Below are positions 16,901 through 48,037 of a stretch of 64,000 nucleotides of DNA, piece after piece. The notes below the pieces were generated by a model. That model ran no database searches. It saw only the letters and a program-made list of their open reading frames with translations, and was not told where the DNA came from. Numbering within the stretch: the stretch's first letter is position 1; every line of letters begins with the position of its first letter. Source of the stretch: Microthyrium microscopicum (Eukaryota); assembly GCA_010405405.1 (NCBI GenBank), contig MU004230.1:530627-594626 (forward strand), written 5' to 3'. Made by a program: the position numbers and the translations under genes.

Positions 16901-17568
16901 AACTCCTCCACCTCATTGCCTACCTTCCTTTGGTATCCTGATACTATTCTTCCCACCTCTATCAAAGCCATAGACACGCATGAGACCTTCTCGTTAATAT
17001 CTGGTTGTGTCTGCCACAATTTAGGCCTAATTGCGGCTCTACCAGATCTCGTGTGACCTCCATCCGTGTTGGTTTTAGCACATCTTCTCCCCAGTTCATT
17101 ACCAACCACCAAAACTCTCAACGTTCAACAAATAATCCTCGAGCATTTAGAGCGTAAATCACATCATATCAGCCTTCTCGATCAAGCCGACTTCATTTGG
17201 ATATCCAGGTTACGAAAAGAGACTACCCTGAATTCGGTAATCTCGCTCGCGTAGTCAACTTCCGAATCCATCGGGTGCAAATCCCGTCTCCCTAAAAAAG
17301 TATATCAGACCTGTCATTTTTTCCATCCATGCGCGGATCACAAAGTGGGCTAATCATCTATCTATTTACAGGTAAAACAGATTGCAATCCCCGCGATCTC
17401 AATAATATCCAGGAAACCCTCCTTTCACCCACAGTGGTCCCACGCTCACCCCGGCTTTCACACGTCGCAATTGACTTTGCTTGACAACGCCCTCTGCGAC
17501 AGAGCTCACTTAAGTGAGGCTCTAGCCATCAACTCAATCGAAATCCTGCAAAGGTAACGAACCACATC

Positions 17569-20500
17569 ATGAACGACTTTGTACCAGCCTCGCGAGGAAG
17601 CAGGGCTCCCAGTGTGTCCTCTGCCGGCACTGCGTCGACGACTGGCGTTGGCACCTTCATCCCCAAATATACACCAAAACCAGAACCAGCATACATATCT
17701 TCCTCTGCGGCCGCCGATCACATAACACATATCCATCATAACGAGCAATATGGACTTTTGTCCCCTGCAGCTTCCCCTACGAATGACGCTGCTATATTCT
17801 CCGACAATGCGCTTCAAATGCTCAATTCCTTTTTGGACTCGCTGCTCTACAATTTTCTTGCAAAGGCAAAAGGCACAAAACTCTCGCTACTCAGACCTGC
17901 TATCATTGAGGTTCTCAAGGCAAAACTAGGCCGTGAAGCTTTGGCTAGTGCTGACGAGGAGCTCGAGGGTCTCGTCGCAGAAGGTGACGACGATGAGCAA
18001 GATGGTGCTGACAAGATGTCCTCCGTTCCTGAATGGCATTTGGAAAGCGCATTCAAGCGAATGAGACTGAGAGTCATGGTTTTCATTCGATTGGGTGATT
18101 TCGATGACGATGATGAGGACAAGTTTCTTGACGATGAGGACGCTGCCGATATGCATGGCCACGATCAGCAAATCCTCTCTTCTCCAGCTGCTGTATATGT
18201 TGCTTCCGTTCTGGAGTACCTCGCAGAACAATCACTATCGCTTGCCAGCGAGGCAGCTTGCTCACGAGCTAGACTGCGAGCTCGTCGAGTGTTCAACGAG
18301 AGTGGCCCAGTGGATGTTCCAGAGCATGAAAACATTGTGGTTGAGGACAATGACGTGGAAAAGATTGCACTGAATCCCGGTTTAGGACGTCTCTGGCGAA
18401 CCTTTCGCAAATCTCAACGAAGTCTTCTCCCACCTGGAAGTCCAACAGCCTCACACTCACGGCGCAGCTCTGTAACATCACCAATCCGCGTTGCTAGAGA
18501 TGCTCGAAGACAATCTGGCGCGGGTATGATTAGAGAGGAGCGAGAAACACCAGTAGAAATTATTCCAGATTGCGAACCGACAGAAACTGAAATTGCAGCA
18601 AATATTCCGCTACCCACCAACGAACGAGACGCGGAAGAAATTGAAATTCCTGGTTTAGCTCCCGTCATCTACGACGAAGATGAGGAGAGCTTCGAAGATG
18701 AGCTTGAGCAGGGGTCCTTGCATAGACCGCGCAGTGTGTCATTCACCATCCCCGGTGCTTTTGTGTCAGAATCACCCATGATTGAAAGTCCGGCTGAGTC
18801 AGCCCCGCAACCTCATTTTAAGCCATTGTTGAAGAGACAGCGATCAAATTCGGTTCCATCAACATCTGCAGTACCGTGGGATTGGATTCCTGTGTCGGTT
18901 CGTAGAGCTCTCGCTCGATACGCGAAGATGGACGACTTGGAGCTTGCTAGCATCATTCAGCTTCCAGAAGAGGATGAACATGAGCTTATCGAGGCCGCCA
19001 CATTGACCCCCCTTCCCGAAGACACGCACGATGTGGAATCTGAGGTCTATGCCGCTGTGTTGGCTAATGACGAAGTAGCTCCCACGGCAGCATCTTCGGA
19101 ATATGGTTCAGACACCGCTTCTATTCAAGATCCTACAGAAACTATCATCGCTCAAACCGGCGATAAGCCCTTAAACGATCCTTCAGTCGAGCCTTCAATC
19201 GATCCCAATACCAACGAAAACGGTCCGGCAATATATGTTGCCGAGCCTGTGGCTGACTCTGAAAAACAAGTCGAATCAGAGCCTATGGATGAGCATACTG
19301 TGGAACAAAAGTCAAAGAAGGGGCTTGTCGCAGGTGCAGTTGGTGCTACAACATTAGCCGCGGCAGCAGTTGGAGCAGCAGTAGCTGGCACAATTGGATC
19401 GTCGAACAAAGAAGAACACAAAGAAGTGGCTCAGCCAGGATCGAGATCAAGCCTTTCAGTGCAAACTAGAGAGGTCTTTGATATGGACGAGCCCGATACA
19501 GCAAGACAAAGCCTCGACGTGAGCCAACATCAACTAGGAGCATCCCGGGAATCTTCCGCAGATACCGTTGTACGGGTTGATAAAAGTGCAGAGCAATCTA
19601 TTTTCAAGAAACCAGATTCACCCGTCAAGAAACAAGTTGCTTTTGCCGACGAGCCTAAAGAGAAAGAAAGTTCCCCTCTGTTGTCTGCATACGCACAAAA
19701 GAAATCTCCGACGATCGAACAGCGAGGTTTCGCTTTCCAGGCCGAGCCGTCTAGGGTGGCGCCACTACAGACATCCACGGCCAAAGATAGTAGCAAGGAT
19801 GCCCCAAGCGCCCTACCCGTGGATTCCAAGGTGGCCAGCTCAAATCATATTGCCAGCCAGATTGCAGCGACCGGTATTGCAGCCGCTGCAGGGGCCGCTG
19901 CAATTGCGGCGGTATCTACAACCTCAGGATTCGCCAAAACCAACACAAGTCCTCCCATCAGCACTGGCAAACCGTCTCCACCGCCAGACACGCCTACGCC
20001 TGTCAAGGCAGGAACGGAGAGTCCAGTCTCACCCTTGGAAGGCACGATGGCGCTTCATCAGCAAAAGCTGCAGGAGCCACCCAGATCTGTTCCTGCCCGG
20101 GATGGCCCGCCAAAGCCATTGACCACCTCCAACGGAAATTATCCCGTCAACCCATACGCCATGTTGTATGATGATATAGAGCCTGATGCCATTGGCGTCG
20201 CAAAGACCTCCAATGTCCCCATACATTCCTCATCTCCCTCCATTTCCACTGAATCACGGCCTTGGACGCCCAACCGTGGCGCCACTACTACCACCGTGTC
20301 TAACTCCATCAATGCCAATACTGCCAATAACTCTGAGCAAGCTCAACGAACGCGAAACATCCCATCTCCTCTTCGGGTTGGCAATCAGGATCAATTGCTA
20401 GCTCATGGCAATTCTCAATTCCCATCTACATCCACACCAACCCAAAAGTCTCGGGATGCACCTAAGACAACGGCTCAGGACTCGGATGACTACGATCTAG

Positions 20501-22277
20501 ACAAGCCGATCAACCCAGGGACTTTCCAGAGCTGGAAGACACCCAAGGAGAGTCCAACTCTGCCCAAGTTCTACAATCAAAACCAAACCGCTGTGGCTGG
20601 TTCAGAAGCTTCCAAGCCCGTCACTACTAATAGCTCTGCTGCACAATCTCAGCATAGTCCAAAGGGTTCGCAGGGCAGTCAGAAGAGTCAAAAGAACTAC
20701 CAATCCGAGGAAATCAAGCAACGTGAATTCGATGCACTGCTCGACCGAAAAGAAACTGTCAAGTACACATTAACCCCAGAAGAAATCCGTGACGTAGGGG
20801 TAAGTAATTCTTTATACCTTTCTTTGTACTTTCTAACATTCCTTAGCCATACTCCTCCCAGAAGCCTAGCTTAGAACGTAAAGCTCCTTCTCCTGTGGAT
20901 ACAACTCGTAAAACATCGATCACTGGAGCGCGCTCCCCTCCTCTTTTCCGCCGTGCTTCACCAACACCACAACAACAGCAACAGCAGCCAGTCCAGCCAG
21001 TTCAGCAAGTCCAGCAAGTCCAGCAGCAGGCTCCTTCTCCCCAGCGCCCTCTTAAGATTTCGGACATTCGTAAATCTATCAATGCTATAAGCCCTGAACC
21101 TGTCGAGTCTTCCAAGATGCGCAAGAATGGTCTCATGGCCCGTGAAGCGCGTGTGCCGGGCGGAGAGACTAAGGATTTTGTCGACTTTATCCGCTCCTGT
21201 GCACCAAGTTCCCCAGATCAGACAGAGCCACCACAGTTGTCTCATCGTTTATCTGGCAATCTAAGCCAAACTGCACCAGCTGGACCACGATCTCAACGAT
21301 CTAGATTGAATCTAGTTCCACGAGAACCCGATGTTCGTACAAATGCAAATGATGATCTCGTCGATTTCATTCGCAACGGGCCTCCTCAGGCTGGTGCCAA
21401 CGGCCAGGCCGCACGAAACGCTGCCTCTCCGCGGTCTGATCAAAATGGTTCGTCAACAAATAATTCTCTTAACTCTCGTCCTTCTGTGACCGACTCTTAC
21501 AATTCAACAGCACCCTTGGTAAACACCAACAAGCCACTACCATCGAATCCCAAGGTTCTGTCACCTCCCCAGCCTCAGATCACCAAGACTCGACGTCGAA
21601 ACAAGGACCCATACGCGATCGATTCCGACGATGAGGATGATCTCACCGCTTTGCCAACCAAGGGCCGCGCTGGTGGAAGTGGATCTGAAACGATACAGGA
21701 ATTCCTCATGTCTACAAGCCCACCTACTCAGTCGTCACGCATCAGTGGAGGAAGTAATGGAGTCACCAATGGAAGTCCTCTTGCTGTCTCTTCCTCATCC
21801 CGAAATGAGCCGTTGAACTTCCGTTCTCCTGTTTCTGCCAGTTCGCGATCGCGCCGTAATACCAATGAGCCATTACAACGTCAAGCAAGTGGCAATCAAC
21901 TCAATGGTGCACAAGCTCCAGCTTCACTTTCAGGTCGTGGCTCTCACCCTGCCCTCAACTCTTCCGGATTTTCCAAGAAGAAGCTGGAGGCTAGACCTGC
22001 AGGTGCCACGCGAGGATTTGGAGGCCTTGGATATTACTACAGCACTAATGACCTCGCCGACTACCTTCGGTCTAGTGGACCAAATGCTAATCGCGTGAAT
22101 GGCGATGCTACAAATGGAGGCCCAGTTGCACCTTTCAATAATCCCAACCTTACCGCCGGTAGACTTAGTGCCAATCCAAGTGGACGCAACTCACCCGCCT
22201 TGGAAGGTGGCCCAGCATTGAAAAAGACAGACAGCACACGAAAACGATTCTTTGGCCGCAAAGCCGTTCAGACATAG
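17569..22277 (+). CDS. ~1,553-aa protein: N-terminal histone-fold-like region followed by a long Ser/Pro/Thr-rich low-complexity region (1 intron 20800-20846)
   Basis: ORFs 17569-20874 and 20895-22277 join in frame through a GTAAGT..CTAAC..TAG intron. SPAAVYVASVLEYLAEQSLSLASEAA resembles the histone H2A central helix. No obvious signal peptide. Confidence 0.8.
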
Positions 22278-24286: not shown

Positions 24287-25621
24287 TCATTGCGCGTCCA
24301 AGAGTGGTGTTTCCTCCGTGTTCTCCGCTCTGAATATTCCGAGCCACGATCTTCGACCCTCATTGCTCCAGACTTTGTCCCAGTACAGCACAATATACCA
24401 CAGCACACCAGCCAAGAACCCAACAGCATCGTTCTTGAAAGCGAGTATACCTGCAATAGTTACAAGCATCACACTAAACCGTTTCTTTCTCTCCTCGTCA
24501 CCCGCCATGCGGAAACTGTTGCCATCTATGTTTTCTTCGAGATCGAGAGCAGTGGTGTTTAGGCTCTCTGCCACTTTGGCAAGCTCCATGCCTGCAGCTA
24601 TCACCATGATACCCAGTAGGCTGTGTGGGAAGCGCTCAACGACCCATACCACAGGGTTTGCAAAGAAAAGGCCGAGGATGAGTTTGACGAGACCGAGAAA
24701 GATGACTGAAGCACCACTGCGAGCTCCAAAGTGGTATTGAGCAGCCAGTCCACCAGAGCCATGACAAATTGGCATGCCGCCAAAAATGAATGAGATGAAG
24801 TTTGTGACTGATAGTGTAAGGCCAAGGTGAGCCAAACTTGGTGCAGGCTCTTCGGAGAAAAGGTGCTTGCTCAGATGAGATGTGGCCAGTATTGAGTTTA
24901 GAGTTGTCAAAGGTATCTGGCCGATTGCTGCTGGTAGAGCCGCTTTGAAGTCATGGAGATCCGGGACATATATCTGTGGATTCCAGAGACTAGGGTGCGT
25001 ATGAGAGTGGTAGTGATCTCTTGGAGATAGGATAGCGAACAGCACTCCCAAAAGCGTGATGATCAACGCATATGGAATATGTCGTTTCGAATATGCCGTG
25101 CAAAGAAGCAGAAATACAAAAGCAAATAGTGTCCATAAGTGATTGTCTGCCCAGGAAGGTCGAACCCATCCCAACGGTTTCAATAAGCTTGTTCCCGCGG
25201 TGATGATGAGTTGAAGTCCAGCACCGACTTGAATACCGCGAACGACCGGAAGAGGAATGTATTGATTGAGCAAGTCCAGAGTTCCAGATATGCTGAGCAA
25301 GAAGATAACCACGCTCACTATAAGTCCCGCTACTGCCGTTTCCTGTATGCTGAAATGTTGATCGATTGCTACGGCCGCGATGGCTTTCATAGGCTGGACT
25401 GGTATTGGCAGTCCAAAGAGTAATCCAGTAGCGATATTTGCCAGTCCTGTAAAGACCAAAGTAGACGATACAGCAATGCTGCCATTCAGCGCGAGAGCGA
25501 TGAAGATGGGCAATAAAGTACCCAAATCGCCCAATGAGCCAGAGATCTCGGAAAGAGGGTTGACTTTGAAGGTTTGCACATTGCGTCGTGAGACACGACT
25601 CAAATGGGCTTTGAGTGGCAT
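24287..25621 (-). CDS. Molybdate transporter, MOT1 family
   Basis: Single-exon 444-aa ORF with SEISGSLGDLGTL, PVQPMKAIAAVAI and MPICHGSGGLAAQYHFGARSG motifs typical of MOT1-type molybdate transporters; many TM segments. Confidence 0.88.
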   Translation of the reverse strand: MPLKAHLSRVSRRNVQTFKVNPLSEISGSLGDLGTLLPIFIALALNGSIAVSSTLVFTGLANIATGLLFGLPIPVQPMKAIAAVAIDQHFSIQETAVAGLIVSVVIFLLSISGTLDLLNQYIPLPVVRGIQVGAGLQLIITAGTSLLKPLGWVRPSWADNHLWTLFAFVFLLLCTAYSKRHIPYALIITLLGVLFAILSPRDHYHSHTHPSLWNPQIYVPDLHDFKAALPAAIGQIPLTTLNSILATSHLSKHLFSEEPAPSLAHLGLTLSVTNFISFIFGGMPICHGSGGLAAQYHFGARSGASVIFLGLVKLILGLFFANPVVWVVERFPHSLLGIMVIAAGMELAKVAESLNTTALDLEENIDGNSFRMAGDEERKKRFSVMLVTIAGILAFKNDAVGFLAGVLWYIVLYWDKVWSNEGRRSWLGIFRAENTEETPLLDAQ

Positions 25622-25726
25622 CTTGTCTAGATCAAAAGGTTATGAGAGTAATGAGGTCAGCTAAAGAGAACGACAAGAGACGGTACCAAATGCCGCTGGA
25701 CATGAAGTTCAATTTACCTCAGCGTG

Positions 25727-25801
25727 CTCAGACTCTAATTCAGGTTTAGCGTCTGATTATTAATAGTCGCTACGCTCCCTGACCCTAAATTAGAGCCTAA
25801 G
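25727..25801. repeat. Imperfect inverted repeat (23-bp arms, 29-bp loop) at the left edge of the RIP block
   Basis: 25727-25749 CTCAGACTCTAATTCAGGTTTAG versus reverse complement of 25779-25801 CTTAGGCTCTAATTTAGGGTCAG: 18/23 identical, and 4 of the 5 mismatches are transitions. Confidence 0.7.
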
Positions 25802-26379
25802 AGACACTTATATAATCTATACTATAATCGCCTTAACGGATTTTTAGATTTCTATTTATTCTTTAATTATACTATTACTATATATAAATTATTAAATTTT
25901 CTTATAAAAGGCTACTAAGTAAGTAATTATATATATAAAAATTAGGTTTATTTTAAGATTTAATGCTAACTACGTTCTATAAAAATCTCTCTATTTTATC
26001 TTACTTTAAGGAGCCTAACTTAGTAAAAGTTAATAACTATATAATCTTTTATATATATACGTATAACTACTATTTACTATTACTACTCCTATTATCTTTT
26101 CGTCCCTTCTCTTATATCTAATATATTTATAAAATACATTTATAACGCTTTATTTCGTATTATTAGCTAGTAATACTATTAGCTTTTCTATTATTACTTC
26201 TAGTAGTAATACTATTAATAAGTTCGTATTAGCTATAGCTTTATACTTTTACTATTCTCTTTACGTATTTATCTTAATCTTAAGGTCTATATTATATAAA
26301 TATATATTAATTATATTATATAATATATTAAACTATTCTAATTATATATAAGCCCTTTTAAATAATGCGCTAGATATTA

Positions 26380-26680
26380 CTAAAGACATATTAAACGTAT
26401 CTAAAGATATATTAAATATGTCTAAAGACGTATTAAACGTTTTAAACGATAAGTCTAAACGTTTCTTATAATATATTAAACGTTTATTATATTTTACTAA
26501 ACGTTTGTTATATCTTATTAAACGTTTGTTATATCTTATTAAACGTTTATTATATCTTATTAAACGTTTATTATATTATAAGAAATGTTTCTATAACGTA
26601 TTAAACGTTTTTATAATATATTAAAACTTTTACTAGTTATTTATTAGATATTTTATATATTCTAAACGTTTTATAACGTC
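26380..26680. repeat. 21-bp-period tandem array built on TAAACGTT
   Basis: Five units TAAACGTTT(G/A)TTATATCTTAT-like starting at 26477, 26498, 26519, 26540 and 26561, preceded by three CTAAAGACRTATTAAACGT-like units at 26380, 26401 and 26422. Confidence 0.85.
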
Positions 26681-26794
26681 TTAACTAAATAAAAGTATTA
26701 GATATTAACCCCTATCTACTACTCTATATATAAAGGCTATACGTTAGTATTACTAATATAGATATAGTTAATTAGAGACTTATATACTATTATT

Positions 26795-29700
26795 ATATCT
26801 AGTACTAAGCGTAAACGTAAGAGTAAACGTAATAAGGTTATAAGTAGATCTAAAAGCTAGACTAAGAATCTACGTTATTATAATATAAAGGTAGCTTAGA
26901 GAGATCTACTAAATAGGCCTAAATAAAATATATTTTTCCTTAGCTCTATTAGCAAACGTACTTATTCTACTTCTTATAGCTCTATATTATCTATAGCTAC
27001 TAAATTTAATAAAACTACTACTAGTAGTTAAGGTAATAATATAGCTAATTATTATAATAGTACTACTTATAGTAATAGCAATAGTAATAGAGATAGTAAT
27101 ACTAATAACTATATTAATAGGGATATAACTAGCAATATAGCTAATAGTACTAGTACTAGTACTTATAATAATAAAATTAATAATAATCTTATTAATAGTA
27201 ATAACGCTATTAGTATTAATTCTATTATATATCTACTTAGTCTATAATATGCTATTATACTAGATAAGTAAGTAAAGTACTTATAAGATTTTAATACTAT
27301 AATTAAAGTTTCTATACTTCTAACTATCTTTACTAATATACTTACTTAAGAGAATAATAAAGCTAGTATTAATATTACCTCTTTAGGCTAATAGTATTAT
27401 AAAGATTTTATAAAAGCTTTATTTAAAAGATTACTATATATATAGGAAAGTAAAAGGTTAGAAGCTAAGCTAAGGTAGGTAGAATCTCTATATTATATAA
27501 TTTTTAAGCAATAAGATATTATACTTATTACTAAGACTAAATATAGTAAAAGTATTATCTTTTAAGCTTTTAGTATTCTTATTAGTAAGGTTATTCTCTA
27601 GGCTATTCTCTTTACTTTACTAGGTTTAGAGTAGTATAAAGATATTACGTAGCTTCTTAGTATAAACCTAGCTATTATTTATTTAAGGTTAATACTTAAT
27701 AAATACGCTTAAGTCTATTATAAGTTACTTAATAGTACTATTACGTATTATCTACTTTCTTCTAAATAATTAATTAGTAAGTATATATAAAAACTACTTT
27801 AAGATCCTTAATTCCAAAATAGACTTAGTCTAGTTATTATTAATAAGGAACATCTTATTAAAGACTAAAGGAAATTCTTTTAAAAGGAATATTCTTAACT
27901 TTATATACTTTAAGATATTATTCCTTATTTCGTCATTTAGTTTAGTTACTTAGAGACTTTAATAGTAAAAGCTAAGAAGTTTTTACTTAATAAAGAAGAA
28001 TTCTAGCTATATAAAGAATACTAAGATATTACTTATACTACTAGGTTTATTTATACTACTATTAATAGGCTAAATTTAGGTTTTTAACTTTTATATATCC
28101 TAAAAGGGAAGCTTAGTAATTAGTTAAGGTTAAATATAGTCCTTAGTTAAGCTATTTAGAATCCTACTAATAGAGATTTATTTATAATATCTAAGTTTAT
28201 ACTATTAACTATAATTTTCTTAGATAAGCTATTAAATATAATATCTATTCTTAATTACCTATAATAAGCCTTAGTAAAGTTATATTCTAACTTTACCTAA
28301 AGTAATTAGCTTTCCTTAGCTAATATTTATACTATTATTTAATAGTATACTAAATTAACTTAGAATTTTAATTAAGATTTATAGTATATTTAGCTTAAGT
28401 AGTTTAATTCGTTTTGCTATATTATAGTTACTATAACTACCTTTAGCATAGGCGTTAATATTCTAAATATATATTACGTTATAATATAAGGTCTTTTATA
28501 AAGTAGAGTATTAGCTAATCTAGTTTAGAAGATTAGTTAAGTTAGTTATTCTAAAGCTAGTTATATTCTTCCTCTTCTATTAGAAATAGGTTTAAACTTA
28601 CTATTACCTATCTTACCTAATCTAGATAATAAAACTTTCTCTAGAGTTAGGCTATTTAATTATATTCCTTTTTATTTATTAGTTATTATTTTTCTACTAT
28701 ACTAGTTATTTAATACTTAAAGGTAGTATCTAGTACTAAAGTCTTCTTATAAGAAAGTAGATAATATATATATAGTAGTAACTACTCTTTAGGCTAATAT
28801 TAGTAAGGTTAATACTAAGGGCTATTTACTATTAGCTTTTAAGTTACTCTATATAATATAAAATACTAATTTTGCTACCTAACTAAGTACTTTAGTTACT
28901 ACTTAAGAAGCCTAGGCGTCTATTAATCTACTTAGTAGTTTAGCTATTATAGCCTCTATTAGTTATAATCTAAAAAGTAATAGATTATTAGACTAAATAT
29001 GCGTAGAAATTAGGTATAGAGCTATAATTAATTCTATTTAATTAAAGTTAGTTAATAGTACGCTATTATTAGATTCTAACCTTAGTTAGCCTTACTATTA
29101 CTATTAAGTTATCCTAGACTACCTAAGAGACGTTAAATATTATTAAGGTACTCTTATTAATTATAATTAATATTATAATATATATTAGCTAGATAAATTT
29201 ATTATATTACTATCTTAGCTTATTATAAAGAAGAAGCTTATAATTCCTTATATAAAAACGTAAAGGCAATATACCTTTAATAGCTTAAAATAATAAGCTA
29301 CTACGTAGTTAGATAAAAAGTATCTAATTACTTATTAATAGCTCTTATTTAGAGAGTTTTAGTATATAGGCTAAATTAAGTTAGTTACTTTAAGTATCTT
29401 TTAGGATTTTACTAACTTTCTATCTCTTATAGATAATTCTATAAACCTAAATACTATATAGAATTAAATATATCTTATATATTCTCTTTTATAAAAGTAA
29501 AGAGTTATAAATATAGCTACTTATAGCTAATTATTAACCTTTCTTATTAGTTCTAACTATTAAGCTTGCTATATAGTAGCGTTTAAATATAATAGACTTT
29601 TTAGGCGAGTTAGTTCTATAGTGCTATTATATTTATCTTTTATAATTCTAAGTTTTAGTACTTATTACTATCCTTCTAAAGAAGTTAAGCCTATTAGTTC

Positions 29701-30223
29701 CTTACTAGTAGACTATTTGCTAGGTTAGGTTACTTTAAGGTTTAGGTAGTTATTACCTATTATACGTTTAGCTACTTCTATCTTAGCCTCTTAACTAGTA
29801 TTTTCTTTATTATTATTATCTTAGCCTTTAGTAGTATCGTCTATACTTAGACTATTATTTTAAACTAAAACTAGGGTATCTCTTAATTTAAAGAAAAAAT
29901 AAGGAAGAGATTATCCTTATAAACCTAGATTAGTCTTTAAACTTTTAGTTAATAGTAGTCTTTCTTAACCTTTACTTATAATGCTAACTACTTCTTAATA
30001 TAATAGTAGTACTTTATATTCTTCTTTACCTAATATAGTTCTAGACTTATTCTTATTATATATACTATTACTAAATAAGCTTATAGAGTATTAGTTACTA
30101 AACTATTTAAGTAGCCTCTTACTCTATAATACTAAAAGTAGTTAGTTAAGCTTATTATCTTATTCTCTAGTAATTAGTAATTATAGTAGAAAGTAATAAT
30201 AGAAATTAGAAACTAGACGTTAG
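26795..30223 (+). pseudogene. RIP-inactivated RecQ-family (SF2) DNA helicase, ~1,140 codons
   Basis: All motifs lie in one frame and are recovered by reverting transitions. Motif I ACT AAG ACT AAA TAT AGT AAA AGT (27530-27553, ~AKTGYGKS). Motif II ATT AAT AAG GAA CAT...GAC TAA AGG...TTT TAA AAG GAA TAT (from 27839, ~IDEEHLIKDWG.FRKEY). HTTIDRPNL near 28050. Motif V ~IVATTAFGMGVNIPDV (~28420-28470). Motif VI ~QKIGRVGR (28526-28549). Zn domain ~CRRQVILDYLG...CCDVC (29090-29185). Start ATA(<ATG) followed by a TKRKR basic patch. End coordinate is approximate. Confidence 0.85.
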
Positions 30224-31149
30224 CCTCTATATAATAATCTTAATTACTATTTTCCTTTATCTTTACCTTCTATGAATAGTCTAAATATTATACTATATAA
30301 GAGGACATAATATAGCTTAGTTATTTTATAGCAAACCTAAGTAATTAATTTATTCCTAATGCTTTCTTATAGTTTAGGAGAGACTACTATACTAAGAGAT
30401 AAGTTATCTTCTATATACTTATCTTATCCTTTTAATTTAGATACCTTTATTAATAAGCTAGTATATTAAGAAATAACTAAAAGTAGCTAAAAAGTACGCT
30501 AGTTTAAGTATGTATTAGAAAATTTATTCCCTTATTAATATATTTAATAATATTTCTATATTTTATATATTATTAGATAGCCTTAATTATTATTAGGTTA
30601 TTTATCTTATAGTATTAAGTATATACTAAGTTTTATAAAGGATAGTTAAGATTTTAGAAACTTTTTATATATTTATACTTAAAATAATATAGCTATTACT
30701 AATTATTATATTATTATTTATAGAGTTACGTAGATCCTATTTATTAGTATTAAAGGTTATTAATATTAACTATATTTCTTTATATATACTTTTAATGCTA
30801 TCTATATAATACTAATAGTATATCTATCTTAATAGATTTTAAACTATAATTCTATAATGTTCTTTATATCCTTCTCTTACCTTAGCTATCTTAGATAGTA
30901 CTACTCTTTATTACTTTATCTTATTCTTAATTATCTATATATTATTATTATCCTTATTATATATTAAATTTTATCTTTAAATATTTAGTTATATACTTTC
31001 TCTTTTAAAATAATTTAATAATTAAACGTTATTAAACGTTTTAATTAATAAATCTTAGAAAGTACGTTATAAAGTATTCTATTAATAAGATTAAAACTCC
31101 TATTAGATTATATCTTCTATTACCTTCTCTTTTAAAACCTAACTTCTTA

Positions 31150-34100
31150 TTAATTTAAATTTACTATTAAATTATTTCTAAAGTTTACTAACCTTTTAAA
31201 TAGTAAGAATATTTAAGGATTATTATTATAAGTAGTTAGTAGTAACTATTATTAACTAAATAGATAATATTATTTATATAGATACCTTTAGTCTATATAA
31301 TCTATTATTTATAAAATCTTTTACCCTCTATATCTTTTTCCTCTCTCCTAAGTATTACTCTTTTAGCTTTAACTTATCTTTATAAGTTATTTAGTATCTA
31401 TTATATCTTTAAGTCTTATTATTTAGCCTCTAAATAGCCTTTATTATATTCTTAGTTTATCTATCTATTAATAGGTACTTTAAGAAGAGTACTATTTATA
31501 TATTCCTTTATTTAGACGTTTATTATTACTATAAACTATAATCTAGTTACTTTTACCTCTAAAACTCTTTATAAGTTATCTTTTAAGGTTTTTTATTAAG
31601 TATCTAAGTAATAATTTATAGTCTTAATATTATTATACCTTAGTTAATCTTATTAAGTTATAGGCCTAATTTTAGCCTTTATAATAGCTATATTTCTTAC
31701 GCTACTCTTTATTAGTATTATAATTAACCTTTTATTTTAGACTTATTTAATTTATATTTATATAGTTAGGAACTAAATATACTATCTACTCTCTAACTTT
31801 TTTTACTATCTTCCTTATAACTTACTCTTTTATTACCTCTAAGCTCTACTATTTTTATTAAGATATCTTTATTAATTTTTAAATTTACGCTACTTAGTCT
31901 AGATTTTTTATTTTCTCTAAATAAAGAGCTAGGAAATGTTAATATTCTAGCTTCTTCTATTACTTTACTATTAAGATTACTAAATTTATATTATAATAGC
32001 CTTTTATCTTTTATCTAAGAGCTATTAAATATAGCTATATCTATAGGATTAAGTAAAGATAATAATATAGTATCTAAGTAAGAGAATTAACTAAATAATA
32101 ATAAGGTTATTTAATATATAGTTAAGAATAGGCTAACTTTAGATATAGCTCTTACTCTATATTAAGACCTTCCTAAGTATAATAGTAATAAATAGCTATA
32201 TCTAAATAATTAGCTATAGCTTTAGGTATCTTAAGAAACTAAGTCTTTTATTTTAGATTTAGATAAAGATAAGATACTCTTTTATTACGTTCCTTATCCT
32301 CCTATACCTTAATATTCCTCTTCTTTATAGCCTATAATAACTATAATATCTATTTTTATTCCTTAACCTTTATTACTTAGGAAGAATTAAACCTAGTAAT
32401 ACCTTACTTATAATCTAGTAACTAATTAGCTTCTTCTACTAGTATAATTACGTATAGTTTATATCCTCTTTACTCTAATAGATTATAGTATCTTTAGTTT
32501 TACTTAGTATAAACTTATTACTTCCTTACCTAAGTTTTTAAGTATTATATATCTACTATAGATATTTACTCTAACTTTTAAAGAATCTTTAGTTTATAAT
32601 TTAAAGTTTATAGTATTAAACGTTATATCTATACTATATCTAGCTTTTATAGTTTATAAAGCTATTTATATTACTCTTAAAGTTAATTAGCATAATTATA
32701 CTAACTTTAATTATTATAAGTTATATCCTATTAAAGAAGCTTACTAGTATCCTAATATATTAGAGTATTATTACTATCTTTAGTAGTACTTTTATCTTTT
32801 ATTAAGTCTAATAAGTATTAGTATACTTTTAGATTATTTAAGCGTTACTAGTTAATAGGTATTAGGTTATTTAGAAGCTATTCTTATTTCTATACTTTAT
32901 ACTTATTAAGATATAGCTATTAATACTTACTATCGCTACTAAGATTAATAGCGTTAGTTAGAGATAAAAAAAATATAAAGAAAGTAATATAAATCTACTA
33001 ATATTTAGTATATACGTTAGTTATTAGATACTTAGGCTAGGTATATATAATTTACTATTATTATATAGTAAGTTATTAATACTAATATTACTATAAATAT
33101 GCTTTAGCTATAGTAGTAGAGACTAATAGTTTATATTACTATTACTTCTATAACTCTAACCTACTTTTCTTCTTTACCTTCTTAATTTATAGGTTCTTCT
33201 TTATATAATTAACTCTTAGCTTCTTTATAAGCTACGTCTATACTTATGTTAGTTTTCTTATTTCCTACTATTATTTTATTAGTAGAAAGTTTTTTATCTA
33301 TTCTAGCTATTAATACTATACTAAGAGCGTCTTTACCTCTACTAATAAGATTTTCTCTACCTAGGTCTTTAAATAAGAATAGTAATAATAGGGATTTTAA
33401 CCTATTTAGTAATAATTAGGAAATAAATAGTCTATTTATTAATAATAAGTATAATAAATAAGATAGTAGTATTAAGATTTAGGCTATTGTTCTTTTATAG
33501 CTAATTATATATCTATAGACTAAAGCTAAAAACTATATTATAGCTAAACTTAAAAAAGAATTATAGGTTAAAGCTATGCCTACTCTTTAATTACTAGCTT
33601 AGTTACATTATATACTTACGTTAATTCTTTCTTAGCTATTTCTAAATTTATAGTCTAGTTCTCTTATATTAATTTAATATATATTAGGTCTAGTTAAGCT
33701 AATTAGTCTATATATAAGTAATAATAATTATTATTCTCCTCCTATAGCTCGTTACCTATCTTCTTTCTAAGCTTTAATTACCTCTATTATGCCTAGTAAT
33801 TAACTAGTAATAAATACTTTATCTCTAATTCCCTTAACGTTTATTAACTCTTTTCGTTTAATTACTTTTATCTTAACTTCTACTCTTCTAATTAATAATA
33901 CCTATATTATTAATAATTATAGTCTTATACTTCTACCTCTCTATTTATTTTATATCTTAACTTCTACTCTTTCTATTAGTAATACCTATATTGCTAATAA
34001 TTATAGTCTTATATATCTACCTTTTCCTCTATCTCGTCTTATAGATAGTATTCTTTCTACCTTAACTACTATATTATTTAAAGAGTCTAAATAAGGCCCT

Positions 34101-35400
34101 TAAAGTAGGATTCCTTAAGTAGAAACTCTAAATAGTTTACCTTAGTATAACTCTACTTAATTTAGCTAGTAATATTATAAAGATCTAGCTATATATAAGA
34201 ATAATACTAAGTAATATAAATTTTAAGGTATTATAACTATTATAAAGACTAATCTTAGCTATTAAGTTTATAGTAATAATTAATATACGTATTATAAAGA
34301 AAGTAATTATAAATATTAGGTTTATACTAAATAGGGTTATAAGGTTATTAAGAGTATAACTAATAGCTATACTTAGTATTACTTTAAATCCTAAAAGGAT
34401 AGTTACTTATTAATAAATTACGTTTCTAATAAAGGACGCTATATTAAGGCTTAAAGTAAAAAAACTAAGAAGTGTCTAGTAAGTAAAAAGACTTAAAAGT
34501 AGGCTAATAAGAAAAAAGCTTAGTAGTCTTACTAATAATAATTTAGTAATAAAGATTAGAATAAGGACAATAATAGTTAGCAAGTTACGCCTCCTAAAAT
34601 CCTTATCTCTAATCGCTATAGGCCTAAGTATTAAGGACCTTCTTTACTACTTTTACTAAAACTAATAATAGAAGTTTAGTTTCTCTTTTTATATTAATAG
34701 TTAAGTTTAAATTATAGTAATTATAGATTCTATTATATAGTTATAATTATATTTCTATTAAATTCTATTTAAATCTAAATCGTATAGTACCTAAATTATA
34801 TAATCTAATTACTACTACGAAAAATATAGTCTATATACTTTATTATTATAAATTTTATATTGCTTCCTTCTAGCTTCTAGTCTAAGATCCTCTATATATA
34901 TATTCCTATAGCTTCTTTTACTTTTATTAATATATTACTTATATATTCTATATATTTATTATATTTAATAGTAAGCTCCTCTAGTTTTCTAATAACGTTT
35001 TCTACTATTATAGTTTTAGTAGGCTAGTACTATTAAACTTAGAACTCTTAGAGAATAATAGTATAAAGGATCTTTATAGCTAAAAGTAAAGTTATCTATA
35101 ATATTCTAGTTTATACTTTTATCGTCCTAAGTTATAATAGTTATATAGGAAAGTCTAAAAAGAAAGCAAATAATATATTATAGCTAAGAGTAGATTTATT
35201 TATAATACCTTAGTTTATAATTTTACTATTTTAAGTTATAATAGTAGTATAAAAGGTTTAGTAAAAAAGTAAATAATACTAATAGAAGAGTTTAGTAATA
35301 TTAAGATATAAAACTTAGTTTATTAAATATAGGTAACTAAGTATTTATAGTAAGTAGCTATATTATTATTTCTTAGTAAGATTAAGCTAGAGGTAATTAA
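31150..35400 (-). pseudogene. Long RIP-degenerated coding relic of unknown family (with an internal ~84-bp duplication at ~33869-34025)
   Basis: Minus strand is purine-rich with Glu/Lys-type codons held in consistent frames, broken only by TAA/TAG. Relic splice signals near 33620 and 32940-32960. Boundaries approximate. Confidence 0.35.
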
Positions 35401-35710
35401 ATATTTAAATCTCTTATTTATAAAGCTATATTATAATTATTAATAAAGTTAAGTCTTATTATAGCTAGTACACTAGTAAATATACTATAAAAAATATTAA
35501 ACGTTTTAAATATTTTATTATAGATACCTATATAGCCCTAAATTTATTTACCTATTCCTTCTAAATCCTAACTATATTATATACTTTTATATCTTAATCT
35601 TATATTTTTTATAGTAGCTTTAAGAGACTTCCCTTTATATAGGCGTCTAGTAGTATTTATTACTATTTACTTTATTTAAAAGCCTATGTCTTAATATCTA
35701 GAAATATATA

Positions 35711-35810
35711 ATAACGTTTAATAACTTTTAATAACTTTTAACAACGTTTAATAACTTTTAATAATTTTTAATAATATCTAATAATGTTTAATACCTTTTA
35801 ATAATTTTTA
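35711..35810. repeat. 10-bp tandem array (ATAACGTTTA / ATAACTTTTA), ~10 units
   Basis: Directly visible 10-bp periodicity. The reverse-complement unit TAAACGTTAT matches the core of the 26.4-kb array. Confidence 0.85.
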
Positions 35811-36099
35811 AAGCCTTTTATAAATTTTTGCTTTACGTTGCTATATATAACCTTATAATTATCTTTATTTATATTCTTAATTAAAGGCTTTTATCATTTT
35901 TTCTTATACTACTTCTTAACTAACTTTAAATATAGTTATATAGGTTTCCTTTCTTAGGGAAGTAGTTATATTTAACAACTATATATATATTTTAGCTAAT
36001 ATATTTTATAATAAGAAAAAGTTAATATTTTAAGTTTATTATAATTTATTAATACTATAGGCTTACTCTTCCTTCTTTATATTATTCTATTTATTCTTA

Positions 36100-45461: not shown

Positions 45462-47530
45462 ATGCCCTATCGCTATTCTTTTATATTATAACTAATTCTA
45501 TAGTATAATAAATTTTTACCTAATACTAATGTTTATATTAAGATAGAGATTAAGTAATTTAGTAAGCCTATATATAATTTCCTTATAATAATTAAAGGAG
45601 AGATTAAATAAGAAGAGTTTAATAACTAGCCTTATAAAGAGTATTTAATATATAATAAGACATATAATTATAATATAACTACGTAAGTAGTTAAAAGGCC
45701 TAAGAAATAGATATAATATTAAATTATACTAATATATATATCTATATTTTAACGTTTATAGTATTAAGGTTATCTTAAATACTACTAAGGCTCTCTAAAC
45801 TAGACGCTTATATATATATTCTAATACCTTAACATTATCTTAATAGATATACTTAACTACCTAGACTAAAGTAATATAAAGTTATATAGTACTATAGTAA
45901 CAGAATTATCTAGAGTATATACAAATATAGTTAGCTTTATTAAGGAGCTCTACGTAACTAGATAGAAGATAATAATAGTATAATTAGAAGTTCTATATAA
46001 CGTAATACTTAGTACGTAATTAATAATAAGATTAATAGGACTAGCTTTATAATACTAGAATAGGGTTATATCCTTATATATTTAAATAGATATTTAATAC
46101 AAACCTATAATTAGACTATTTATATATTAATAACTACTACCTTTATATTATAGTTAGTATATCTTATTATAAAATCTAGCATAAAGAGTTAGACTATAAG
46201 ATAGTAAGTACTAACTCTATACTAATTAATATTATTATATTAAAATATAGTAGTAATCTAATAAAAGTTTTTAAGAATATCTAATATTTATAGTAACTTA
46301 GCTAGAAGGTTAGAATAATACTAGTTATTCTACTAGTATACTAAGTATTTAACGCGATTCTTTTTACTTCCCTTCTTTATTATCTTTTTAGTATCTAAAT
46401 TTAGTTTATTTAATTTATAGGAATACTACCCTAAGAAAATAAAGATACTATCTTTAATTATATTATAATTAGTACTATTAAACGTATTAATAATATAACG
46501 TAATAGTACTTTATATATCCTAATTATTATAATAAACCTACTAAAAATGCTATTAGTATATAACTATAATAGTAGATAATTTAATAGTTAGAAGTATACT
46601 ATTCTTTAACCTTAGGATAGAAATATAAGAAAGTCTTATTTACTAACTTATATACTATAAGTATATAGAACGCCTACTTATAAAATTAATAGAAGTTAGA
46701 ACTCCTATTTATAAAATTATATTTATTTATTATAGCTAAGTACTAGAATCTTAATATTATATAGAGTTAACTTTTAGTAATTACTTATTTAGTACGCCTA
46801 CTATAAAAATATAGAAGTTTTAAAACTCTTACTAGCTAAAAGTTTAATACGTAGCTTAGCTAAAAGTTTATAGATATATAATGCTATTCTTAGTAGCTAG
46901 TTATAGATTATTTATCCTTTCTACTTAAATTAACTATAATCTATTAATTATACTTAACTATGCTTATTATAAGTATATAGTACTAATTATTTAAGTTCTT
47001 ATCTAGTAGGAGCACTATAATATTTATAGATAAGGAGAATATAATAGGTATAGGGTAGGTAAAGAAAGAAGTAAGGATTTATATAGTAGTAGTTTATATA
47101 TTAAGAAGAAGTAAAGTATTAAAGATAATAGATAAACGTAATATAGGTTTACTAATAAAGATCTTAGATTAAATAGTAAAAAAAGTAAGTAATAACTATT
47201 AAAATAGGACTAGCTAATATTTAATATAGTATTAAACTTACTATTAATTAATAATACGCTAAAGAATAAGTAAATATAAATAAAATAATAATAAGTTAGT
47301 AGATTAGTAATTCTATAATAAGAATAGAGGTAAGAATACTATACTAAGTCTAACTCTTATAAGTTATAGAGAAAAGGATAGAGTAGTAAAAATATAGTAA
47401 GTCTATAGAAGGATATAAAAAAATAAACTAAATAAATAAAGCTAATAGTATATATTTTATAAAAGATATTAAAATAGTAGTAGTTAAAATAATATAGAGT
47501 AAGTAGCTCTTACTTAATAAGGTATAATTT
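45462..47530 (+). pseudogene. RIP-degenerated intron-containing coding relic of unknown family
   Basis: Surviving ATG CCC TAT CGC at 45462, a GTAAGT donor at 45683 with a TAG acceptor at ~45761, then a long frame with RIP-type stops and a charged C-terminal region. Confidence 0.35.
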
Positions 47531-48037
47531 ATCTAGATAGATATTTCTATTAGTATTTAAACCTTTACTAACTATTAAACGTTATAAGACTTTACTTTAT
47601 TTATCCTAGATTTTTAATATTTTAATAACGTTTAATTAGTCCTAACTTATAATAATAATAAAATTCTTATTATAGGATATAAATACTAACTTTATACTTT
47701 TTATTGTCTATATAGTTATTTTACTTCTATTTTATACTATAAAGTTACTATAATATCTAAGGTTATTATACTAGAAATATAGTAAAATTAAGTAGTTAAA
47801 TAATAAGTATTTAGTTATATCTTCTAGATTAGGTAGAAATAGTAAATAGTAATGCTTTATATATTTATAAAGGATATAATTAATAAGTATATATATTAGA
47901 TATAAAAGTAAAAGAGTACTAAGATTAATATAGTTATAAAGAACTAAGGAAAGAATATAGTATTAAGTAAGCTATTAAAACTATTTAGTAATACCTAGCA
48001 TAATAATAATAGAGAAGACTTTATTATACTAACTTAA

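What the first reader, a model, noticed from the sequence alone, without database searches (positions are those of the whole stretch)
26795..30223. Hidden ~1,140-codon RecQ helicase invisible to ORF calling
Helicase motifs I, II, V and VI and the RecQ Zn-binding Cys cluster all fall in the frame starting at 26795 (offsets divisible by 3). There are no net indels, only transition damage. Motif II reads DEEH after reversion rather than the usual DEAH. It has a low-complexity N-terminal extension with a KRKR patch and a Ser/Pro-rich tail. Being RIP-mutated implies a repeated, element-borne helicase rather than host SGS1.
Basis: partly seen in the sequence, partly recalled or inferred. Interest (0 to 1): 0.75.

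Follow-up and report, generated by a model that had tools for sequence, protein, structure and literature searches.

The report
RIP-killed transposon RecQ-like helicase gene
A fungal genome-defence process (RIP) has riddled a roughly 1,100-codon RecQ-like helicase gene with stop codons, and its intact relatives elsewhere are carried by a cut-and-paste DNA transposon, so this is a dead mobile-element gene, not a host repair gene.

Summary
The frame starting at 26795 has 93 stops and hits nothing in Pfam or PDB. Scoring that allows C>T and G>A reversion gives 627 half-bits against a profile of intact relatives. The other five frames give 62 or less. Plain phmmer of the stop-masked translation finds 145 relatives in 1.84 billion proteins, best E 1.5e-27.

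Alignment to 900-1,000 aa relatives runs in one frame from nt 27116 to 30316. Motifs I, II, V, VI and four invariant Cys, now Tyr codons, are in register. RIP indices are extreme.

The family is RecQ-like but not canonical. It has DEAD and Helicase_C only and scores below the NCBIfam recQ_fam cutoff.

In metagenome loci the intact relatives sit in 8.5-9.6 kb elements. These have an 18-bp TIR, 8-bp TSDs, a small Cys-rich ORF and a convergent DUF6589 gene. None of 80 loci has telomere repeats.

The window keeps the helicase and the Cys-rich ORF relic. No DUF6589 gene or TIR was found.

Verdict: an ordinary dead transposon relic. The transposon family may be undescribed.

The parts
25800..26794 (.). 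Start of the RIP-degraded AT-rich block and the leader upstream of the helicase frame. It may hold the left end of the element.
   Evidence: GC falls from 0.42 to 0.18 between 25750 and 25850. The distance to 26795, about 975 bp, resembles the TIR-to-ORF distance in the closest intact loci: L002 880 bp, L008 1,136 bp. No TIR was found.
26380..26615 (+). 21-bp tandem array with core TTAAACGTTT, 180-415 bp upstream of the frame start.
   Evidence: TRF reports 2.9 and 7.7 copies. 15 of 50 window matches to the core cluster at 26391-26673. Intact elements carry short-period motif arrays in the same place. Homology between the arrays is not shown.
26795..30223 (+). The stretch supported by homology is 27116-30316.
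   Evidence: 93 in-frame TAA/TAG stops. RIP-aware profile score 627.4 against 62.5 or less in other frames. Pairwise scores 505-540 half-bits to P0123, P0124, P0122 and P0137, in one frame. phmmer best E 1.5e-27. TpA/ApT 1.82 and (CpA+TpG)/(ApC+GpT) 0.05.
27527..27553 (+). Helicase motif I (Walker A), read ITKTKYSKS; the family consensus is ArTGFGKS.
   Evidence: Codons ATT ACT AAG ACT AAA TAT AGT AAA AGT. G, K and S are invariant in 29 of 29 relatives.
27842..27853 (+). Helicase motif II, read NKEH. It reverts to D-E-(E|G)-H.
   Evidence: Codons AAT AAG GAA CAT. In the family D, E and H are invariant; the third position is C in 26, A in 2 and V in 1 of 29.
28430..28555 (+). Helicase motifs V (28430-28459) and VI (28523-28555).
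   Evidence: These align to family columns AttsLGmGvN and WQriGRGgR. The motif VI codons are consistent with x-E-x-G-R-A-G-R by transitions only (my reading of the codons).
29093..29185 (+). C-terminal Cys cluster C..(L/F)GE..CCxxC of the family, now Tyr codons.
   Evidence: C676, C700 and C701 of P0124 are invariant in 29 of 29 and C704 in 28 of 29. The window has TAY at all four aligned places. There is a weak profile match to the RecQ zinc subdomain.
34017..34472 (+). Relic of the element's second gene, a small Cys-rich ORF ('C5'), on the same strand and in the same order as in intact elements.
   Evidence: RIP-aware scores of 214.5, 172.6 and 111.0 to the C5 ORFs of L002, L008 and L003, all ending at 34421-34472. 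By my reading of the alignment, the six conserved Cys of the motif are Tyr codons. C5 lies between helicase and DUF6589 in 18 loci. The low-complexity N-terminal part raises the background.
35709..35829 (.). 10-bp-period array (TAATAACTTT, with AACGTTT variants). It may be a subterminal repeat of the right end.
   Evidence: TRF reports 10.3 copies. AACTTTTAA is the transition product of L008's array motif AACTCCTGA. Two TTAAACGTT-like units lie here on the minus strand, against plus at the left. Suggestive only.

Best explanation
Window 26795-30223, probably extending to about 30316, is the dead copy of a RecQ-like superfamily-2 helicase gene. The gene belongs to a family of cut-and-paste DNA transposons of ascomycete fungi.

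Shown: in intact relatives the element is 8.5-9.6 kb long. It has an 18-bp terminal inverted repeat (TTATCTCATAAATCAGAC) and makes 8-bp target-site duplications. It carries three genes: the helicase (+), a small Cys-rich protein (+), and a convergent protein of about 890 aa with the domain DUF6589 (-).

Inferred: DUF6589 is the transposase. It has invariant D, D and E residues in contexts typical of a DDE enzyme. The helicase and the Cys-rich protein would then be accessory factors. The Cys-rich protein may bind the 10-bp motif arrays found near both ends. The helicase may unwind DNA at the ends, at the target or during gap repair.

Shown for the window copy: repeat-induced point mutation (RIP) converted C to T and G to A on both strands. 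It produced 93 stop codons with no frameshift, so the gene cannot make protein.

Partly shown, partly inferred: the copy retains the helicase and the Cys-rich ORF relic in the right order. It has lost the DUF6589 gene and any recognisable termini. It is therefore a truncated or rearranged relic at the edge of a 38-kb RIP-degraded repeat block, next to ordinary housekeeping genes.
For: Helicase identity:
- RIP-aware profile score 627.4 against 62.5 or less in the other frames.
- phmmer finds 145 hits, best E 1.5e-27.
- Alignment to relatives stays in one frame over nt 27116-30316.
- 19-21% of aligned residues are identical and a further 27-29% are transition-compatible. Shuffled pairings give 4-7% and 11-15%.

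RIP:
- TpA/ApT is 1.82 and (CpA+TpG)/(ApC+GpT) is 0.05. The flank 1-25900 gives 0.69 and 1.32.
- Where the window has stops, relatives have R 23%, Q 14% and W 11%. Background is 9%, 5% and 1.6%.

Transposon context of relatives:
- 21 of 26 loci with at least 5 kb downstream of the helicase carry a convergent DUF6589 gene. Over all loci the figure is 29 of 80.
- The Pfam DUF6589 match has E 1e-67 to 3e-72.
- Helicase and DUF6589 relatives share contigs of identical length.
- Twelve two-ended copies were examined. Seven have perfect 8-bp TSDs, three have one transition mismatch and two have none.
- At least 9 copies with sharp boundaries occur in one metagenome's contigs.
- The TIR core is also conserved in L002, L004, L006, L008, L012 and L067.
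- The Cys-rich ORF is present in 18 loci.

The window copy:
- The Cys-rich ORF relic lies at 34017-34472 on the same strand.
- The closest intact loci, L003, L002 and L008, all have the three-gene layout.

Not a telomere-linked helicase:
- 0 of 80 loci carry (TTAGGG)3.
- The window has no telomere array.
- 0 of 29 relatives have the C2H2 patterns.
Against: - No TIR was found in the window. There were 3 matches to the degenerate TIR against 3.15 expected by chance, and none lies near the gene.
- The left-end DNA of intact elements shows no similarity above shuffles.
- No DUF6589 gene was found anywhere in 25-64 kb in six frames. The profile maximum was 50 and pairwise scores were 57 or less, against a median of 52.
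- The helicase and the Cys-rich relic are 3.3 kb apart, against 1.1-1.3 kb in L002, L003 and L008. The intervening DNA is unexplained.
- No second copy of any part of 26-36 kb lies in the window.
- The copy number in this genome is unknown.
- That DUF6589 is a transposase rests only on conserved acidic residues and on exclusion. Its fold was not tested.
- Five of 26 well-flanked loci lack DUF6589, so helicase copies without it also exist.
Confidence: 0.8

Rival explanations
1. It is a RIP-degraded telomere-linked RecQ helicase (TLH), the subtelomeric gene family known from Magnaporthe, Fusarium, Ustilago and S. pombe. RIP-degraded repeats of this kind have been described in Stagonospora nodorum, Zymoseptoria tritici and Leptosphaeria maculans.
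For: - RIP-degraded repeats annotated as telomere-associated RecQ helicase are on record: S. nodorum repeat X26 (PMC3017866, passages) and L. maculans (PMC3105345, table footnote).
- Z. tritici has a 3,480-bp, 34.7% GC subtelomeric RecQ ORF in 13 copies (PMC4522978, passages). That is close to the 3,429 bp here.
- The window is a 64-kb piece whose chromosomal position is unknown.
Against: - There is no telomere repeat array in the window. The two single 12-mers with one mismatch are at chance level.
- The gene abuts housekeeping genes: URO-D, a MutS homolog, SBF and MOT1.
- 0 of 80 loci of intact relatives hold (TTAGGG)3. Many of these copies lie inside contigs of 100 kb or more and are bounded by TIRs and TSDs.
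- 0 of 29 relatives have either N-terminal C2H2 pattern. Motif I sits at residue 66-235, which leaves no room for a 250-aa TLH domain plus zinc fingers. The TLH features are taken from passages of preprint 10.1101/2024.02.27.582403.
Confidence: 0.08
2. It is a host RecQ paralogue, not mobile. It could be a duplicate of Sgs1/MusN, QDE-3 or a RecQ2-type gene. It would have been destroyed because RIP spread into it from neighbouring repeats or after a segmental duplication.
For: - RIP is known to leak into sequence next to repeats (general knowledge).
- The whole 38-kb block is RIP-degraded, so the damage alone does not prove that this gene itself was repeated.
- No second copy lies in the window.
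Against: - The best relatives are not BLM/Sgs1 types. RIP-aware scores are 505-540 to the transposon-borne family and 119-148 to fungal BLM-type proteins P0102 and P0112.
- The family is separated from 14 canonical RecQ by a long branch, SH-aLRT 98 in a quick tree. In the sequence search the E-value jumps from 1e-74 to 1e-16.
- RQC and HRDC are absent.
- A second gene of the element lies downstream in the expected order.
Confidence: 0.04
3. The helicase family is mobile, but the window copy is a solo helicase captured or duplicated outside any transposon, for example by segmental duplication. The downstream Cys-rich match would then be coincidental low-complexity similarity.
For: - No TIR, no TSD and no DUF6589 gene were found in the window.
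- The C5 references have a low-complexity N-terminal half that scores 90-126 in wrong frames.
- Five of 26 well-flanked loci lack DUF6589.
Against: - Three independent C5 references from loci of different samples end at the same window position, 34421-34472, in the same frame. Their scores are 111-214.
- The aligned conserved part places Tyr codons at all six Cys and stops at Trp and Arg (my reading of the alignment).
- Strand and order match the intact elements.
Confidence: 0.07

Closest known systems
AcademH DNA transposons (Kojima 2020, Mob DNA 11:15). The paper itself is not held; it is known here only through citing passages in PMC10045372 and PMC10799480.
   Same: - A eukaryotic TIR transposon that carries a DEAD/Helicase_C helicase beside its transposase.
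- It is reported from animals and fungi (title only).
- Structural kin of DUF6589 in the ESM Atlas come from Basidiomycota, Mucoromycota, Mollusca and Cnidaria, a similar spread.
   Different: - AcademH is stated to make 9 or 10-bp TSDs (PMC10045372 passage). Here 10 of 12 two-ended copies show 8 bp.
- Whether DUF6589 is the Academ transposase could not be tested, since no Academ sequence or profile was to hand.
KolobokH DNA transposons (Kojima 2022, PMC9587614, passages).
   Same: A fungal DNA transposon lineage that encodes a RecQ helicase.
   Different: - In KolobokH the helicase lies downstream of the transposase domain. Here it is a separate gene on the opposite strand.
- Kolobok TSDs are TTAA (recalled, not from a call). 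Here they are 8 bp of varied sequence.
Fungal telomere-linked RecQ helicases (TLH): M. oryzae TLH1, F. oxysporum TLH, S. pombe Tlh1/2, U. maydis UTASa.
   Same: A multi-copy, RecQ-like, fungus-specific helicase family outside the housekeeping RecQ clades.
   Different: TLH proteins have a 250-aa TLH domain and two N-terminal C2H2 motifs, and they sit next to telomere repeats (preprint passages). None of these is seen in this family or in the window.
RIP-degraded 'telomere-associated RecQ' repeats of Dothideomycetes: S. nodorum X26 and the Z. tritici 3,480-bp RecQ ORF.
   Same: - A RecQ-like coding sequence of very low GC, repeated, and recognised only after allowing for RIP.
- Similar length: 3,480 bp against 3,429 bp.
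   Different: Those repeats are reported as subtelomeric.
Canonical RecQ helicases (E. coli RecQ, Sgs1/BLM, WRN, RECQ1/4/5).
   Same: - The helicase core with motifs 0-VI: hhalign probability 99.9% and 38 of 39 PDB hits.
- A Cys cluster after motif VI with C.R..(F/L)L..(L/F)GE.
   Different: - No RQC or HRDC domain, and no Pfam RecQ_Zn_bind hit.
- Below the TIGR00614 cutoff.
- DECH in motif II instead of DEAH.
- A separate clade.

Membership tests
RecQ helicase family (canonical) | SF2 helicase core with RecQ-type motifs 0, I, Ia, II-VI | tested here: met
   RIP-aware alignment to E. coli RecQ residues 27-331. For the intact relatives: hhalign E 2.3e-36 and 38 of 39 PDB hits RecQ-family.
RecQ helicase family (canonical) | RecQ C-terminal zinc-binding subdomain (four Cys) | tested here: inconclusive
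   Four invariant Cys are present in the family and appear as TAY codons in the window. Pfam PF16124 is not detected in 16 of 16 relatives. Local hhalign of the post-motif-VI pieces gives P 8.9e-5 and probability 60%.
RecQ helicase family (canonical) | RQC winged-helix and/or HRDC domains; score above the curated family cutoff | tested here: not met
   No PF09382 or PF00570 in 16 of 16 relatives scanned, nor in the 51 family rows. TIGR00614 scores 98-122 bits against a cutoff of 219.8 in 7 of 7.
Telomere-linked helicase (TLH) | Position next to terminal telomere repeats | tested here: not met
   No array in the window. 0 of 80 relatives' loci have (TTAGGG)3. Caveat: assemblies often lack telomeres, and the window's chromosomal position is unknown.
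Telomere-linked helicase (TLH) | Two N-terminal C2H2 motifs and a ~250-aa TLH domain upstream of the helicase core | tested here: not met
   0 of 29 relatives match either C2H2 pattern, and motif I sits at residue 66-235. The TLH domain itself was not compared by sequence, because no TLH sequence was to hand.
AcademH | Helicase gene inside a TIR/TSD-bounded DNA transposon | tested here: met
   Met for intact relatives. Not shown for the window copy.
AcademH | 9 or 10-bp TSD | tested here: not met
   8 bp in 10 of 12 two-ended copies: 7 perfect and 3 with one transition mismatch. Two copies have no TSD.
AcademH | Academ-type DDE transposase | not testable with these tools
   No Academ profile or sequence was available. 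DUF6589 hits nothing else in Pfam or in PDB by sequence. The fold job was not accepted.
KolobokH | [quoted passage not shown] | tested here: not met
   The helicase is a separate gene, convergent with the DUF6589 gene, in 29 loci. In one locus (L045) the two are on the same strand.
RIP-mutated repeat | TpA/ApT above 0.89 and (CpA+TpG)/(ApC+GpT) below 1.03 (thresholds recalled); transitions only; nonsense codons derived from Q, W and R | tested here: met
   Indices are 1.82 and 0.05, against 0.69 and 1.32 in the flank. The stops align to R, Q or W in 48% of cases, against 16% background.
Cut-and-paste DNA transposon (the window copy itself) | TIRs and TSD at the ends of this copy | tested here: not met
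   The degenerate TIR search is at chance level. There is no left-end DNA similarity. Nothing is seen at the AT-block boundary.

The most novel reading that the evidence does not exclude
The intact relatives define a lineage of eukaryotic cut-and-paste transposons that is not yet described as such.

- Its transposase would be the 'domain of unknown function' DUF6589.
- It makes 8-bp TSDs and has a strongly conserved 14-18 bp terminus.
- It travels with two accessory genes, a RecQ-like helicase and a small six-Cys protein.
- The six-Cys protein's likely targets are the 10-bp motif arrays near both ends and before each gene.

Under this reading the window holds a RIP-killed, transposase-less member. 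Some published 'telomere-associated RecQ' repeats of Dothideomycetes may belong to the same transposon family rather than to true TLH genes.
Probability: 0.3. Interest if true: 0.55.

Novelty: new member of a known kind. Interest (0 to 1): 0.35.

Why it matters
For this genome the result is mostly good annotation. A 3.4-kb stretch that no ORF caller or Pfam scan can see is a dead transposon gene. It is not a lost DNA-repair gene and not a telomere helicase.

Three wider points follow.

1. Method. A stop-masked translation of DNA at 22% GC still found its family by plain phmmer in a very large protein library, although Pfam saw nothing. A simple transition-aware log-odds score raised the signal tenfold. 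This makes heavily RIP-degraded blocks annotatable.

2. DUF6589. The intact relatives give this domain, widespread in fungi, a concrete context. It sits in a TIR/TSD-bounded element together with a RecQ-like helicase. Its suspected transposase function is therefore directly testable.

3. Fungal helicase annotation. Helicase domains of transposon origin are said to dominate host-TE fusions in fungi (PMC10799480, passages). Knowing which helicase clades are transposon-borne matters for reading fungal 'RecQ' and 'TLH' annotations.

Tried and rejected
- Raw translation against Pfam and PDB: nothing. Local phmmer against E. coli RecQ gave -3 bits.
- Whole genome: none is held, so copy number, other copies and synteny could not be examined.
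- Sequencing runs: 6 runs listed under coded names, and no RNA holder listed. No depth, variant or expression data were obtained.
- Earlier findings of the scan: nothing on this genome, on the words tried or on the sequence.
- E. coli RecQ 'longer' search: only bacterial fusions and BLM types, useful only as outgroups.
- DUF6589 in the window: pairwise and profile RIP-aware scans of 25-64 kb in six frames gave background only.
- TIR in the window:
  - The degenerate pattern search was at chance level.
  - Transition-aware DNA alignment of seven left ends to 25500-27000 was not above shuffles.
  - The AT-block boundary showed nothing by eye.
- The motif TTAAACGTTT as an end marker was rejected as a general marker. 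It is scattered over the block, possibly because CpG survives RIP. Only the 26.39-26.67 kb cluster stands out.
- Window 30224-33599:
  - No Pfam hit in six frames.
  - No specific RIP-aware hit to 128 plus 252 ORFs of related loci.
- Cys-rich ORF as Zn2Cys6: Pfam Zn_clus gave E 7.7, which is not support. The weakest hints were DUF3716 at E 0.024 and CxC4 at 0.63.
- DUF6589 classification:
  - No PDB sequence hit at E<=10.
  - No second Pfam family in 40 members.
  - The ESM Atlas showed only DUF6589-like clusters.
  - The structure prediction tool was not accepting jobs, so no fold search was made.
- Papers not held: Kojima 2020 on AcademH and Yuan & Wessler 2011. DUF6589 occurs in one held paper only, as a list item.
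- The careful tree did not finish. The quick tree is reported instead.
- The organism was not identified.


Full report
**What is there**

The window splits at about 25,800-25,850. The first 25.8 kb has normal composition, GC about 0.47. The remaining 38 kb has about 20% GC.

The normal part holds housekeeping genes:
- a sodium/bile-acid symporter family protein
- uroporphyrinogen decarboxylase
- a MutS homolog
- a GDSL lipase
- a MOT1-type molybdate transporter

The AT-rich block has the classical RIP signature. Over the finding, TpA/ApT is 1.82 and (CpA+TpG)/(ApC+GpT) is 0.05. Over bases 1-25,900 the same indices are 0.69 and 1.32.

The frame starting at 26795 gives 1,143 codons with 93 stops. 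All are TAA or TAG. Read with X at the stops, this translation hits no Pfam family at E<=10 and no PDB chain. So the gene is indeed invisible to ordinary tools.

**Is it more than chance?**

I scored codons by log-odds after summing over the residues each codon could have encoded before C>T and G>A changes. This is a script of my own; the priors were 0.65 in TpA context and 0.30 elsewhere.

The other five frames score 35.6-44.7. Thirty codon shuffles gave 43.8 +/- 7.2.
- That alignment covers RecQ residues 27-331, with motifs 0, I, II, III, V and VI in order.
- Plain phmmer of the X-masked translation against 1.84 billion representative proteins then found 145 hits at E<=1e-3 and 44 at E<=1e-10. 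The best is E 1.5e-27 with 27% identity over query residues 199-576. This is independent of my scoring scheme.
- With these relatives as references, the RIP-aware scores rise to 505-540 half-bits. The alignments run in one frame from nt 27116 to 30316, over nearly the whole length of proteins of 900-1,000 aa.
- A profile of 29 relatives scores 627.4 in this frame and 34.9-62.5 in the other five.
- The whole window holds no second copy. The next best score is 74.
- Identity to the best relatives is 18-21%, and a further 27-29% of aligned residues are reachable by transitions only. Shuffled pairings give 4-7% and 11-15%.
- At the window's stop codons the relatives have Arg 23%, Gln 14% and Trp 11%. 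Their background frequencies are 9%, 5% and 1.6%. This is what CGA, CAR and TGG codons would give under RIP.

- Motif I is at 27527-27553.
- Motif II is AAT AAG GAA CAT at 27842-27853, which reverts to D-E-(E or G)-H. The family has DECH in 26 of 29 members.
- Motifs V and VI are at 28430-28459 and 28523-28555.
- Of the family's four conserved Cys after motif VI, three are invariant and the fourth is present in 28 of 29. All four are Tyr codons (TAY) in the window.
- Of 58 strongly conserved profile columns, 18 are identical, 35 are transition-compatible and 5 are incompatible.
- The basic patch KRKRKSKR is directly visible at codons 5-12.
- The first ~107 codons have no homology support, so the start at 26795 (ATA, possibly a former ATG) is unproven.
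- The C-terminus projected from relatives lies between about 30,196 and 30,316.

**What family?**

The intact relatives carry only the Pfam domains DEAD and Helicase_C.
- None of 16 scanned has RecQ_Zn_bind, RQC or HRDC.
- The 51 family rows of a second search show the same.
- Their nearest solved relatives are RecQ-family throughout. 38 of 39 PDB sequences hit are WRN, RecQ, RECQ5, RECQ1, BLM or RECQ4.
- hhalign against 16 canonical RecQ gives probability 99.9% and E 2.3e-36. It covers the core only.
- NCBIfam recQ_fam scores 98-122 bits, under its cutoff of 219.8, in 7 of 7.
- In the sequence search the family ends at E 1.8e-74 and canonical RecQ begins at 3.6e-16.
- A quick tree puts 25 family members on one side of a branch (SH-aLRT 98) against 14 canonical RecQ. 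The careful search did not finish.
- The post-motif-VI segment C.R..FL..LGE aligns weakly with the RecQ zinc-subdomain helix CRR..LL.YFGE, with P 8.9e-5 and probability 60%.

So the gene is RecQ-like, in a separate fungal clade.

Named members come from:
- Verruconis gallopava
- Histoplasma capsulatum
- Microthyrium microscopicum
- Annulohypoxylon bovei

**Neighbourhoods of intact homologs**

A scan of metagenome contigs found 215 relatives, and the best 80 loci were kept.

- None of the 80 holds three or more TTAGGG units.
- Clustering of flanking ORFs showed a recurrent neighbour on the opposite strand, downstream of the helicase. It is Pfam DUF6589, with E 1e-67 to 3e-72.
- By tblastn, 21 of 26 loci with at least 5 kb downstream carry it in convergent orientation. 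Over all loci the count is 29 of 80, and one locus has it on the same strand.
- Helicase and DUF6589 relatives share contigs of identical length: 10315, 12598, 12380, 8380, 7050, 778892, 611236, 6912 and 8176 bp.
- In V. gallopava the two genes have neighbouring locus tags, PV09_09841 and PV09_09843.
- A third gene, a small ORF with a conserved six-Cys C-terminal motif, lies between them on the helicase strand in 18 loci. It has no significant Pfam match.
- In the contigs of one metagenome the unit is repeated at least nine times with sharp edges.
- The edges are an 18-bp terminal inverted repeat, TTATCTCATAAATCAGAC.
- Of 12 copies with both ends, 7 have perfect 8-bp target-site duplications, 3 have one transition mismatch and 2 have none.
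- The 14-bp terminal core recurs in loci from other samples whose helicases are only about 40% identical: L002, L004, L006, L008, L012 and L067.
- Those copies are themselves RIP-affected, with TpA/ApT 1.5-1.7.
- Arrays of a 10-bp motif (GAACTCCTG, AAACTCCTA or AAACTTCTG) lie just inside the ends and between the genes.

The family is therefore carried by a cut-and-paste DNA transposon of 8.5-9.6 kb.

**The window copy**

- The loci closest to the window's helicase are L003 (74% identity to P0122), L002 and L008. All have the layout helicase, Cys-rich ORF, DUF6589.
- The window has a relic of the Cys-rich ORF on the same strand at 34017-34472. Three references give scores of 214.5, 172.6 and 111.0. 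By my reading of the alignment, Tyr codons stand at the six Cys and stops at Trp and Arg.
- It has no DUF6589 gene anywhere in 25-64 kb.
- It has no recognisable TIR.
- An unexplained 3.3 kb separates the two relics.
- A 21-bp tandem array lies upstream of the helicase at 26380-26615, and a 10-bp array lies at 35709-35829. The unit of the second array is the transition product of L008's motif. Together they hint at ends about 9.5 kb apart. This is suggestive only.

**Mechanism**

- Shown: the gene is dead by RIP-type transitions without frameshift, and its family rides a TIR/TSD transposon.
- Inferred: DUF6589 is the transposase. It has invariant D310 (vvvYDNfNF), D477 (wLvHGDQLT) and E732 (IDLGLEHLN) in P0383 numbering.
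- Also inferred: the helicase and the Cys-rich protein are accessory factors.
- The fold test could not be run.

**Known relatives**

Helicase-bearing DNA transposons are known in fungi.
- AcademH makes 9-10 bp TSDs (PMC10045372, passage).
- The present elements differ from both in TSD length (8 bp) and in gene layout.
- The AcademH paper itself is not held, and no Academ sequence was available.
- DUF6589-like folds in the ESM Atlas come from Basidiomycota, Mucoromycota, Mollusca and Cnidaria. This resembles the 'animals and fungi' range in that paper's title.

TLH features come from preprint passages. They are telomere adjacency, two C2H2 motifs and a 250-aa TLH domain. None is met.

RIP-degraded 'telomere-associated RecQ' repeats are already described in S. 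nodorum, Z. tritici and L. maculans. Whether they are this same family is untested.

**Verdict**

For the window, this is an ordinary relic of a transposon gene. The transposon family itself, with DUF6589 as candidate transposase, is the part worth following up.

Noticed in passing
Loci L002-L081, e.g. L008:258-9817 and L040:9066-17602: Intact relatives form an 8.5-9.6 kb transposon. It has an 18-bp TIR, an 8-bp TSD and three genes: a RecQ-like helicase, a six-Cys small ORF and a DUF6589 protein. Arrays of a 10-bp motif lie near both ends and between the genes. DUF6589 has an invariant D/D/E set.
   Followed up: partly
window 46361-51647: A 2,756-bp tandem duplication, 98% alike after purine/pyrimidine collapse. 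It carries 62-bp satellite arrays at 48019-48938 and 50713-51508.
   Followed up: no
window 51896-59545, minus strand: A Ty3/gypsy LTR retrotransposon with hits to RT_RNaseH_2, RT_RNaseH, RVT_1 and the Tf2-1 SH3 domain. Its 224-bp LTRs are 87% alike. It is less degraded than its surroundings, GC 0.31.
   Followed up: partly
window 30224-33599: 3.3 kb between the helicase and the Cys-rich relic, with no Pfam hit in six frames and no RIP-aware match to ORFs of related loci. It may be a nested insertion.
   Followed up: partly
window 26044-26086 versus 47833-47875 and 50589-50631: An inverted repeat of 43 nt, 79% and 74% complementary, with its left arm near the start of the AT-rich block. Its significance in AT-rich DNA was not assessed.
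   Followed up: no
window 17518-22277, plus strand: Two long open frames, 1,118 and 476 aa, in the normal-GC part with no Pfam hit.
   Followed up: no
window about 40706: A run of N (assembly gap), inside a 350-bp tandem duplication at 40367-41056.
   Followed up: no
window 26795-30223 (method): Pfam hmmscan found nothing. Plain phmmer of the same stop-masked translation against a 1.84-billion-protein library reached E 1.5e-27. This may be useful for other RIP-degraded blocks.
   Followed up: yes
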